DNA of 64,000 bases from Octopus sinensis (Eukaryota). The notes beneath the pieces are model-generated. The model was not told the DNA's origin and did no database searches. It saw only the letters and a program-made list of their open reading frames with translations. This document shows positions 60,662 through 64,000 of this stretch, piece after piece. Position numbers and translations under genes: made by a program. How positions within the stretch are numbered: the first letter of the stretch is position 1; each line of letters begins with the position of its first letter. The stretch spans positions 69,316,001 through 69,380,000 of the forward strand of contig NC_043003.1 of assembly GCF_006345805.1 (NCBI RefSeq), given 5' to 3'.

Positions 60662-62075
60662 TTAAAACAATTTTATATTTTAGTGACAGGCATGGATGGA
60701 TGGCTGAGAAGTTTACTTCCCAACATCTAGTTCCATAGTTCCACCTTCAGGTCCTTTGCATGGCATATTGGACAACGGTCATCAGCTTCAGTCCTGGGCC
60801 AACCAATTCAATGCCAGTGAAACTAGCAGATGGAAACTGTGTAGAGGTTCATCATGTGTGTGTGTGTGTGTGTGAAAATGTTGGTTTCAAATTTTGGCAC
60901 AAGGCCAGGAATTTTGGGGACGGGGAGGATCCTAGTCTATTATATCAACCCCAGTATTCTACTGGTACTTAATTTATCAACTCCCTGAGAGGGATGAAAG
61001 GTGAAGTTGACCTCAGCGGAAGTTGAACCCATGTGTGTGTATAAATGTTATTCTTTAACAAGAATGGTATTGAGTGACTTCAGACAGTCCGATGATAGCA
61101 TAGCCAGCCAAAACTTCAAAGTCACTGTCAAAAATATTCTCTATAAAAAGTATGGAATACTCCTTCAGTTTAATGTAAATTTGTTTTTAGCATAAAAACG
61201 AATACAAATTATATGTATGTGCATGTGTGTATAAATATGCATGCGTGTATATACATATATATATGCATGTATATACATACATATATGCATGTATATACAT
61301 ACATATATGCATGTATATATATATATATATATACATATATATACATATATATATATGCATGTGCATATATACATATATATGCATGTATATACATATATAT
61401 ATATGCATGTATATACATATGTATATATGCATGTGTGTATATACACAGTGTTTCTGTGAATGTTCACATTCTGTGACGTTTTCATGCAAAATCCCAACAG
61501 CAAAGGCAGTGACATTATGTTGACAATTCCCTGTCAACAAATCACTCTGTAGCTCCAGTCGTTTAAAGACTGGAAGAATAAAAATCCCTTGTAAAACAAG
61601 TAAAGGTTAGCGACAGGAAGAGCATCTGGTTGTAAAAACAATGCTTTAGCAATAAGACTTCATGTTGCCTATACCAAATGAATGTGTGTTTGTGTTTGTT
61701 TAATGTGCAAGGAGTTAAAAATTTCTGATTTGGTGCCAAGGCACACATTTAACTTACCAAAGGTAGGTTGTCCTTCACGAGTCTTCTCTACTGGAAACAA
61801 ATCCTGCGGAAGTAATCTTTTATATTGATTGTTGGAACCTCATATGTTGAGACCAACGAGAGAATCCACAAAGTTATGTATGTATATTGTTATGGTCAGA
61901 CAGTGAGAAAACCTAGTCAACAATATGTCAAAGCACATTTGTATCTCTCTCACTTTCCCTCTCTGTCTATATAATTCTTAAACAAGAATAATAACTGCCA
62001 ATAATTTTCTCATTTAAGAATAATAGATTTGTACTCCACAAAGTATAGAGCAATCCATCAGATTAATGTAGAATT

Positions 62076-62230
62076 CAGTTCTATATTTAAGAGACGAGGA
62101 ATTATGTACATTATTTACTTTATTTATATATAACGGATATTTGTCATCATCTTGCCCACAGGCATAAGGCATAGTGGTTAAGAGCGCAGGCTACTAACCC
62201 CAAGATTCCGAGTTCGATTCCAGGCAATGA

Positions 62231-62295
<65 letters not shown>

Positions 62296-62432
62296 TTGAA
62301 AAATACCTTAGGAATGAGAACCCAGGTTCAAAATTTTCCCCAAGACACCTGATGAAGGTTGGAGGGTATATCAGCCGAAACGTGTTAACAACAAACAAGA
62401 TGAGGACAAATATCCGTCAAATGTAGATAATG
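62076..62432 (+). mobile_element. tRNA-head/hammerhead retroelement
   Basis: Inverted tail 62076-62154, then head, (AAT)n and hammerhead 62344-62386 (3-nt deletion at the cleavage site). TSD TAATGTAGAATT at 62064-62075 and 62433-62444. Confidence 0.85.
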
Positions 62433-64000
62433 TAATGTAGAATTGTTTCTATTATAACTGAACATTAAGTTTAGTTTAATCCTCAGTCAAGCTCTAATTG
62501 CTAAAACTGAGGGAGAGAGAGAGGAGAAAGAAAGAGAGAAGAAATATTTTCTTTTATGATTTGCTTTGCTATCAGTCTTTATTCTCATGGCATCTACTTT
62601 TATCTAAGATATCAGTCATGTAATGATCTCGTTTGTGGCCACAAATTCATGAAGAAGGGGACACGGTGTATTAAACAAACTCATCCCACTGTTGGTACTC
62701 ATTTCATTGATGCAGAGCACTATGCCACTTGGTAAGATCTTGCTCAAGATCACTCGCTGTGGTGTAGTGCTATACTCCAGAGCAGTGCTTCTCAAACTAT
62801 CTGACGTGGCATAACCGGCAGTTTTTTTTTTTTTCAATGTGCCAGGGACCGATAATATTTCTTAGTAATATTAATTTCTGATGACAGTACCGCCTGATTG
62901 GCACTCATGTGCCAGTGGAACGTTAAAAGCACATTCAAGCGTGATCATTGCTAGGGCCATGGATTGGCTCCTGTGCTTGGTGATACGTGAAAAGCACCAT
63001 TCGAGCGTAATCGTTGCCAGTGTCGTCTTACCAGCATATGTGCCGGTGACATGTGAAAAACAACATTCGAGCATGGTCATTGCCAGTGCCGCCTGACTGA
63101 CTCCCGTGCAAGTAGCACATAAAAAACACATTTTGAGCGTGGTTGTTGCCAGAACTGCCTGACTGGCCCTCGTGCTGGTGGCACGTAAAAGCACCCACTA
63201 CACTCTCTGAGTGGTTGGCATTAGGAAAGGCATCCAGCTGTAGAAATAAACTTTGCCAGATCAGATTGAACCTGGTGCAGCCTTCTAGCTCACCAGTCCT
63301 CAGTCAAACCATCCAACCCATGCCAGCATGGAAAGCAGATGTTAAACGATGATGATGATGAATATAATAAAAGTTAACTTTTTTTTTTTATCTTATATTT
63401 ATCTTGTAAACAAATAATACAATATTACATAAGCATTTTATAATGTTTCTTTTCTGAAAACTCGCCACGTACTGAGAGCTGATGACTCGTGGACCAGCAC
63501 CGCTCAACAGACCACTGCTCTAGAGTACTTAGAGTCATAAATGTTCAGAGAAGCTAAAGAGAGGAAGGCTGCATGCAAAGACAGAGTCCCACCTGGTTTT
63601 GATTCTGTTATTACATGACGGACCCCACAACTGGAACTGTGGGTTTTGTGTCGATTTGGACTAATTGGCCACCTCAGGATACACAAAGATTAAAGCTGCT
63701 AATCTAGTCATCTTCACAAAGGATGAACATCATTTCACTGAGCCCCAACCCCTAAAAGGGACATCCCCCTATTTAATATCACTGCCTGGCCCTTTAGGTT
63801 GCCTTTAGCAGAATCTACTCTATTGCTAGATTTCAAGACAGATCTCTGGTTTCAGAAACCCTGAAAAAAAAATTGGTAGGTGATGCCCTTACACTTAAGA
63901 AAAATTTAAATAAAACACTGAGGGTGGAATGAAATAGAATCCTTATCACAGCAGAGTTTTTTTTTTTTTTTTTTTGGGTAAGCAAAAACAGCATTTCATC

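What the first reader, a model, noticed from the sequence alone, without database searches (positions are those of the whole stretch)
62064..62444. All four hammerhead-element insertions share an inverted-terminus layout inside 11-12 bp TSDs
Seen: each insertion has one end made of the element's extreme 3' terminus in inverted orientation (CAGTT(C/T)TATATTT...). The other end is an internal point roughly 30-40 nt short of that terminus (…GTAAATAATGTA). The inverted part varies: ~15 nt at 14.25 kb, ~80 nt at 56.8 and 62.1 kb, and a whole unit at 8.5 kb. TSDs are TAATGTAGAATT (62064/62433), TATTATCATAT (13927/14256), TTTGTATGAGG (55972/56870) and an imperfect 12-mer (8491/9031). Inference: each composite is one integration event with a stereotyped inverted second priming or template switch, like the inverted terminal repeats of Penelope insertions and unlike standard SINE insertion with a simple 3' tail.
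Basis: partly seen in the sequence, partly recalled or inferred. Interest (0 to 1): 0.75.

Follow-up and report, generated by a model that had tools for sequence, protein, structure and literature searches.

The report
Octopus SINE inserting like Penelope retroelements
A very abundant short octopus repeat with a tRNA-like front end carries the tail end of a Penelope-type jumping gene and lands in the genome with the known Penelope footprint, which suggests it borrows Penelope enzymes instead of the LINE enzymes that such repeats normally use.

Summary
The layout is real. Three TSDs are exact (12, 11, 11 bp), one matches 10 of 12. Each insertion has an inverted 3' piece (16, 79, 85, 288 nt) with the extreme terminus at one end, and a direct copy ending about 30-37 nt short of it at the other. 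One-event integration is supported by an empty paralogous site, by 14 other tail-to-head junctions in public runs, by shared private variants in one pair of halves, and by a related family with the tail never at both ends (0 of 17 clear cases). The layout itself is the published signature of endonuclease-bearing Penelope-like elements (PLEs): an adjacent inverted copy plus a 30-40 nt tail at one end, explained by two reverse-transcription start sites (PMC8557442, PMC11167929). Less ordinary is the passenger: a tRNA-derived head, (AAT)n, then a pLTR-like end with a minimal hammerhead, at very high copy number. I found no such octopus family in the paper searches, but Repbase, Dfam and SINEBase were not searchable. 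No autonomous partner was found. Verdict: a new variant of a known kind.

The parts
62064..62075 (.). TSD, left copy (12 bp)
   Evidence: exact repeat at 62433-62444
62076..62154 (-). inverted 3' piece, 79 nt, with the 31-nt tail (62076-62106) at the outer end
   Evidence: 62076 is the top listed loose-end place in all 4 runs laid
62155..62234 (+). leader remnant and tRNA-derived head (A-box-like 62167-62177, B-box-like 62212-62220)
   Evidence: the 14 kb copy's head, 67 of 75 nt identical to this one, aligns to the window's tRNA-Arg better than 2000 of 2000 shuffles; no Rfam or ARAGORN call
62235..62293 (+). (AAT)n microsatellite spacer
62294..62432 (+). pLTR-like 3' domain ending at the internal site; minimal hammerhead core at 62349-62381 (3 nt missing at the cleavage site in this copy)
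62433..62444 (.). TSD, right copy
61147..61195 (+). paralogous empty site of the 62 kb target, with the TSD sequence once
   Evidence: 38 of 49 identical, ungapped, E 2.4e-5; 10 of 13 matches beyond the TSD
13927..13937 (.). TSD (11 bp), repeated at 14256-14266
13938..14228 (-). full-length direct unit ending at the internal site; hammerhead core 13996-14028
14229..14255 (+). 11-nt filler (partly a fold-back copy of the tail) and 16-nt inverted terminus
55972..55982 (.). TSD (11 bp), repeated at 56870-56880
55983..56784 (-). 5'-truncated direct unit (3' domain 55983-56165, hammerhead core 56034-56066, head 56726-56784) split by a nested repeat at about 56260-56720
56785..56869 (+). inverted 3' piece, 85 nt, with tail; shares 4 private variants in 50 columns with the direct half
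8491..8502 (.). imperfect TSD (10 of 12 with 9031-9042)
8503..8790 (-). inverted whole unit with tail; hammerhead core 8599-8631; open frame of 54 codons at 8504-8665
8793..9030 (+). 5'-truncated direct unit ending at the internal site; hammerhead core 8947-8979
29575..29689 (+). fifth fragment: short (ATT)n, truncated head, (AAT)n; no hammerhead, no tail; 9-bp direct repeat at 29566 and 29690

Best explanation
A non-autonomous retroposon family of Octopus: tRNA-derived head, (AAT)n, then the 3' end (pLTR plus tail) of an endonuclease-bearing Penelope-like element. Shown: the anatomy, the TSDs, a fixed tail terminus, variable head-to-head junctions in other copies, one tail per insertion. Inferred by analogy with Poseidon of Anolis (PMC11167929): (1) the head drives Pol III transcription; (2) a PLE RT/GIY-YIG protein, supplied in trans and probably dimeric, binds the 3' domain; (3) it nicks both strands of AT-rich DNA 11-12 nt apart; (4) one 3'-OH starts reverse transcription at the internal site, in the loop between the upstream AGAUGA and the tail's UCAUCU, and the other starts at the tail end; (5) the two cDNAs run towards each other and are joined head to head with 0-2 nt of overlap or a short filler; (6) fill-in makes the TSD. 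The halves overlap in sequence in 3 of 4 insertions, so two RNA molecules or two passes over one RNA are needed. Origin, inferred: a truncated PLE end landed behind the (AAT)n tail of a tRNA SINE.
For: TSD statistics. Empty paralogous site. Fixed terminus: 298, 229, 231 and 17 contigs with unrelated flanks end at 62076 in runs X1, X5, X13, X19. 14 of 15 listed joints link a 30-56 nt inverted tail piece to the head at other offsets, 7 of the 14 in two runs; 17 more joints not shown. The 56 kb halves are 47 of 50 identical and share 4 private variants; the best cross pair shares 3 in 136 columns. Related family, 182 ORF calls examined, 20 with an inverted piece: tail on the direct end only 12, on the inverted end only 4, neither 1, unclear 3, both 0. 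Minimal type I hammerhead core with a palindromic stem III in 5 of 5 pieces long enough to hold it, the PLE type (PMC4209133). Inverted copy, 30-40 nt tail and 8-10 bp TSD are described for PLEs. The tail lies between two RT start sites, 111-118 nt into the ORF for the stem-loop site; here the internal end lies 121 nt into a 54-codon open frame.
Against: No autonomous partner: 111 and 120 listed protein hits were short ORF calls or exonised pieces, none with a GIY-YIG or PLE RT domain (799 of 919 hits were not listed). The halves of the 62 kb and 8.5 kb insertions share no private variants and are no closer to each other than to other copies. The 3' hairpin is not significant alone (z -1.96, -1.26, +0.52). 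The internal end and the share of copies with an inversion could not be counted genome-wide (no genome; the laid copy diverges beyond 62118). 8 of 300 artificial joins also gave a spanning hit, so the empty site is moderate evidence. The related family is known only from peptide calls, a biased sample. TSDs here (11-12 bp) are a little longer than the 8-10 bp. The 29.6 kb fragment ends behind the (AAT)n like an ordinary SINE.
Confidence: 0.78

Rival explanations
1. Two separate insertions: a second copy was aimed at or next to the first, because the endonuclease likes its own end sequence, and landed inverted.
For: PAc nicks its own pLTR in vitro. Halves at 62 kb and 8.5 kb are not closer to each other than to other copies. 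The 8.5 kb TSD is imperfect, and two targets resemble the element's end.
Against: One TSD brackets the whole composite with none at the inner junction; empty paralogous site; shared private variants at 56 kb; tail at both ends in 0 of 17 clear cases of the related family and 0 of 4 here.
Confidence: 0.08
2. An ordinary LINE-mobilised SINE with frequent twin priming or template switching; the hammerhead domain is a passenger.
For: tRNA-derived head; the 29.6 kb fragment ends behind (AAT)n with a 9-bp repeat; LINE-type RT occurs in the window.
Against: No poly(A) or simple-repeat 3' end in 4 of 4 full insertions. The inverted part is the 3'-most piece and duplicates part of the direct copy in 3 of 4; in L1 twin priming (recalled) the inverted part is the upstream, non-overlapping piece. 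Two fixed ends 30-40 nt apart are stated to be unique to PLEs.
Confidence: 0.08
3. A non-LTR retrozyme: hammerhead self-cleavage gives a circular RNA that a PLE enzyme copies, and the layout comes from copying a circle or multimer.
For: Hammerhead present; retrozymes are proposed to be non-autonomous PLE derivatives; the related family has head-to-tail tandem units.
Against: No tandem copies among the 5 loci in the window. The ends are 50-85 nt from the cleavage site. The core is the minimal PLE type, not the canonical retrozyme type. Hammerhead cleavage was not needed for PAc insertion in vitro. This reading overlaps with the best explanation in the enzyme used.
Confidence: 0.06

Closest known systems
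Insertions of endonuclease-bearing PLEs (Penelope/Poseidon, Neptune, Nematis, Naiad); PMC8557442, PMC3846280, PMC11167929
   Same: Adjacent inverted 5'-truncated copy, 30-40 nt tail at one end only, TSD around the composite, AT-rich targets, minimal hammerhead in the terminal region, palindromes at head-to-head junctions (a palindromic consensus before 62161).
   Different: No RT or GIY-YIG ORF; no direct partial tandem in the 4 insertions; a tRNA-derived head is part of the unit; TSDs 11-12 bp against 8-10 bp.
Schistosoma Sm-alpha / Sj-alpha SINE-like elements (seen only through the review PMC6765202)
   Same: Pol III-type promoter followed by a hammerhead in a short repeated unit.
   Different: Described as tandem repeats released by an active hammerhead; the passages I saw name no PLE partner, tail or inverted copy. 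Here the copies are dispersed and the hammerhead is minimal.
Animal non-LTR retrozymes (PMC7229834; bioRxiv 10.64898/2026.07.22.740005)
   Same: Non-coding, type I hammerhead, proposed PLE dependence and pLTR origin.
   Different: Defined by tandem units and circular RNAs; the parts I read mention no tRNA head; cephalopods were not sampled in the preprint.
Non-autonomous Chlamys PLEs such as MRC1 (PMC8557442)
   Same: Non-autonomous elements sharing the 3' end of an autonomous PLE.
   Different: Green algal; Chlamys/Naiad elements lack canonical hammerheads; form pLTR tandems; no tRNA head mentioned in the passages seen.
tRNA-derived SINEs of molluscs (PMC11481361; Ohshima and Okada 1994, seen only as a reference-list entry)
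   Same: tRNA-derived head with A- and B-box-like motifs, about 280 nt, very high copy number.
   Different: Partners reported in the passages seen are LINE clades (CR1, CR1-Zenon, L2, Nimb), and 'Penelope' occurs 0 times in PMC11481361. Whether this family equals one of the 1994 octopus SINEs could not be checked.

Membership tests
EN+ Penelope-like element (autonomous) | ORF with PLE-type RT and GIY-YIG endonuclease | tested here: not met
   unit about 280 nt; only a 54-codon frame; no RT or GIY-YIG among the hits
Non-autonomous PLE-dependent element | adjacent inverted 5'-truncated copy | tested here: met
   4 of 4 full insertions; 14 of 15 listed joints in public runs; the fifth fragment has only a short (ATT)n
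Non-autonomous PLE-dependent element | 30-40 nt tail at one end only | tested here: met
   4 of 4 here; related family 16 of 17 clear cases, none with both
Non-autonomous PLE-dependent element | TSD around the whole composite | tested here: met
   3 exact, 1 imperfect; one empty paralogous site
Non-autonomous PLE-dependent element | minimal type I hammerhead in the terminal region | tested here: met
   core, stem II and palindromic stem III by motif in 5 of 5 long pieces, 2 with a deletion at the cleavage site; no Rfam hit; activity not tested
Non-autonomous PLE-dependent element | 3' end shared with an autonomous PLE of the same genome | tested here: inconclusive
   no partner in protein searches; no genome to search
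SINE (tRNA-derived) | head derived from tRNA with A and B boxes | tested here: met
   0 of 2000 shuffles reach the alignment score against the window's tRNA-Arg; below Rfam and ARAGORN detection
SINE (tRNA-derived) | Pol III transcription | not testable with these tools
   only contigs were offered; no RNA holder listed
SINE (tRNA-derived) | LINE-derived or simple-repeat 3' tail, mobilised by a LINE | tested here: not met
   3' ends are two fixed points in a pLTR-like domain; only the 29.6 kb fragment ends behind (AAT)n
Non-LTR retrozyme | head-to-tail tandem units with a hammerhead in each | tested here: not met
   0 of 5 loci in the window; the rest of the genome was not available
Non-LTR retrozyme | self-cleavage and circular RNA | not testable with these tools
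   no raw RNA reads offered

The most novel reading that the evidence does not exclude
An undescribed class of SINE: a Pol III, tRNA-headed family that is amplified to tens of thousands of copies by a Penelope-type enzyme instead of a LINE, each insertion made by two primings at the two PLE start sites. It would add PLEs to the known SINE partners and give the largest natural data set for the unresolved PLE integration steps.
Probability: 0.4. Interest if true: 0.7.

Novelty: new variant of a known kind. Interest (0 to 1): 0.48.

Why it matters
The footprint tells which enzyme moves the element even though it codes for nothing. If the tRNA head really drives the family, SINEs can ride PLE machinery as well as LINE machinery, and some octopus repeats filed as unclassified SINEs (893 of 900 recently active SINE families in PMC13282606) may be PLE-dependent. 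The steps after first-strand priming in PLE integration are unvalidated. A short, very abundant element with both ends inside one read lets one count tail polarity, nick stagger and junction types at scale.

Tried and rejected
No whole genome is held, so no genome-wide count. A hammerhead pattern scan of metagenome contigs gave 15 loci, none of this family beyond the ribozyme core; viral and prokaryote collections gave 0. Rfam found no tRNA or hammerhead on the element, only sub-threshold chance matches; ARAGORN found only the tRNA-Arg at 42.4 kb. No RNA holder listed. No empty allele of the 62 kb site appeared in the rows shown for 4 runs (725 loose-end rows not shown). Empty paralogous sites: found for 1 of 4 targets. 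Partner search: nothing longer with the single query; 1 hit near its length; 111 hits of at most 199 aa without relevant Pfam domains; with an alignment 919 hits, the 120 listed all at most 371 aa. My B-box regular expression was mis-written and missed the motif, also in the real tRNA; the B box is read by eye. The stem-II covariation count from peptides was mixed (R/R 55, R/Q 18, W/Q 3) and is not used. Dimer folding did not give the palindrome-paired hammerhead. The regex misclassed some family-A peptides and P0108; one search is the count used. Assembly artefact rejected (bridging contig). DNA transposon with TIRs rejected: the two outer ends are different points of the element and the arm length varies from 16 to 288 nt. 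PMC5785218 was not held.

Full report
Observation. Three TSDs are exact (12 bp at 62064/62433, 11 bp at 13927/14256, 11 bp at 55972/56870) and one matches 10 of 12 (8491/9031). Among 20,000 random position pairs with 3 nt of slack, 11 gave an exact repeat of 11 bp or more, and 0.6% gave a 12-mer with at most 2 mismatches. Each insertion has an inverted piece of the element's 3' end, carrying the extreme terminus, at one outer end: 16 nt plus an 11-nt filler at 14.2 kb, 79 nt at 62.1 kb, 85 nt at 56.8 kb, a whole unit at 8.5 kb. The direct copy stops within AATGTAC, about 30-37 nt short of the terminus. A contig of run X5 bridges the 62 kb junction without a mismatch. A fifth fragment at 29.6 kb has head and (AAT)n only, with a 9-bp direct repeat; it does not follow the rule.

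Anatomy. The unit is about 280 nt. The head has A- and B-box-like motifs and aligns to the window's own tRNA-Arg better than all 2000 shuffles, though Rfam and ARAGORN do not call it. An (AAT)n run follows. The 3' domain holds a hammerhead core with stem II, an almost absent palindromic stem III and a short stem I, in 5 of 5 pieces long enough; two lack 3 nt at the cleavage site. This is the minimal type described for PLEs (PMC4209133; passages and section 5). One frame is open for 54 codons through the 3' domain to the terminus. The same peptide is annotated in Octopus bimaculoides and at the start of an O. sinensis protein, so the family is an octopus family; the window's species is not given. 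A stem can pair the tail with sequence upstream of the internal end in all three long tailed pieces, but its folding energy is not significant.

Beyond the window. No genome is held. I laid contigs of 4 of the 24 listed runs on 61700-62234. Summed depth over tail and head is 51,000-111,000 times the flank in the three large runs; the tool warns this is no copy number, so I read it only as very high copy. The top listed loose-end place is 62076 in all four runs (298, 229, 231, 17 contigs, unrelated flanks), with a second place 4 nt further out in three; 24 of 749 rows were shown. So the tail terminus is fixed. Of 15 joints shown (17 not shown), 14 link an inverted tail piece of 30-56 nt to the head at other offsets, 7 of them in two runs; one changes strand. 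Loose ends before the head show a palindromic consensus and, in some copies, a conserved leader. The lay could not test the internal end or the share of copies with an inversion.

One event or two. The reconstructed 62 kb target matches 61147-61195 without gaps (38 of 49), with the TSD sequence once; 10 of 13 nt match beyond the TSD, against 4 of 13 for the filled site. Eight of 300 artificial joins also gave spanning hits, so this is moderate evidence, and it exists for 1 of 4 targets. The 56 kb halves share 4 private variants in 50 columns; the 62 kb and 8.5 kb halves share none. Protein searches returned spurious ORF calls over a related family on unnamed contigs. Of 182 such calls, 20 show an inverted piece in antisense reading: tail on the direct end only 12, on the inverted end only 4, neither 1, unclear 3, both 0. 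The sample is biased by ORF calling, but the tail is never doubled, and its side is not fixed.

Mechanism. Shown: anatomy, TSDs, fixed terminus, variable junctions, one tail per insertion. Inferred: Pol III transcription; a PLE protein in trans; nicks 11-12 nt apart; priming from both nicks, one at the internal site and one at the tail end; head-to-head joining; fill-in. The basis is the in vitro work on Anolis Poseidon (PMC11167929; parts 1-2 of 4 read): both strands are cut and extended, the protein is predicted to be a dimer, the tail is the stretch between two RT start sites, AT-rich DNA is preferred, and hammerhead cleavage is dispensable. The halves overlap in 3 of 4 insertions, so two templates or two passes are needed. 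That a truncated PLE end joined a tRNA SINE behind its (AAT)n is inference from the module order, the 29.6 kb fragment and the reported microsatellite bias of PLEs. Confidence in PLE-type, single-event insertion is about 0.78. The main gap is the missing autonomous partner.

Comparison with what is known. The layout is described: an adjacent inverted truncated copy and a 30-40 bp tail at either end (PMC8557442, passages; PMC8969392, passages), with 8-10 bp TSDs and junction palindromes (PMC3846280, passages). Non-autonomous PLE dependants are known or proposed: MRC1 and animal retrozymes (PMC7229834, passages; bioRxiv 10.64898/2026.07.22.740005, parts 1-3 of 5, supplements not seen). Schistosome SINE-like elements join a Pol III promoter to a hammerhead (review PMC6765202, passages). 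It works like a PLE insertion. It is not an autonomous PLE, not a retrozyme by the tandem criterion in this window, and not a standard SINE by its 3' end.

Novelty. Ten full-text searches were run. None listed a paper describing a tRNA-headed, PLE-mobilised family in cephalopods; I saw most hits only as listings. The O. vulgaris repeat annotation (PMC13282606, parts 1-2 of 3 and a supplement search) has no 'hammerhead' in its supplement and leaves most active SINE families unclassified; its library was not visible. Passages of PMC6962438, PMC8967140, PMC10886601 and PMC11481361 added nothing on this family. Repbase, Dfam, SINEBase and Ohshima and Okada 1994 could not be checked, and the family is abundant enough to be deposited there under some name. 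Earlier notes of this scan describe similar footprints in other genomes; they are unchecked and not used as support.

Verdict. Observation confirmed, interpretation supported, footprint already known. The tRNA-headed, high-copy passenger is a new variant of a known kind. Interest 0.48.

Noticed in passing
window 234-2954 +: Long low-complexity open frame ending in the start of a Forkhead domain (Pfam PF00250, E 4e-8).
   Followed up: partly
window 4303-6992 +: Non-LTR retrotransposon with a 683-aa frame holding RVT_1 and zf-RVT; the label Tx1/L1-like is recalled.
   Followed up: partly
window 8016-8435 -: 139-aa frame next to the 8.5 kb insertion that looks like the end of a restriction-like endonuclease of R4/Dong-type elements (recalled); no Pfam hit.
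   Followed up: partly
window 56870-57100: The right TSD copy runs into what looks like the terminal repeat of a Mariner-type element (recalled), so the TSD duplicates its first bases.
   Followed up: no
window 56260-56720: Another repeat, with internal direct repeats, is nested in the microsatellite of the 56 kb copy; relatives at 52099, 59370 and 62985.
   Followed up: no
window 62072-62075: A second loose-end peak 4 nt outside the terminus in three runs, and an A/T-rich consensus ending in ATA before the terminus, hint at a target preference or a slightly longer template end.
   Followed up: no
window 61970-62025: The left flank of the 62 kb insertion is self-complementary and has raised depth in the runs: part of a lower-copy repeat.
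   Followed up: no
P0204 (Octopus sinensis, 368 aa): An annotated protein starts with the element's open-frame peptide, a possible exonisation or an annotation error; P0047 is similar.
   Followed up: no
P0002-P0215, unnamed ENA contigs: A related hammerhead family with head-to-tail units of about 35 codons plus inverted pieces; whether it has a tRNA head is unknown.
   Followed up: partly
L001, L003-L007, L009, L011, L012, L014, L015: Minimal hammerhead cores with other stem II sequences in metagenome contigs, probably host-animal PLE ends.
   Followed up: no
window 42448-42520 -; 52493-52564 +: A tRNA-Arg(TCG) gene and a weak second tRNA-like match.
   Followed up: no
window 49700-51150: Degenerate 20-nt tandem array.
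   Followed up: no
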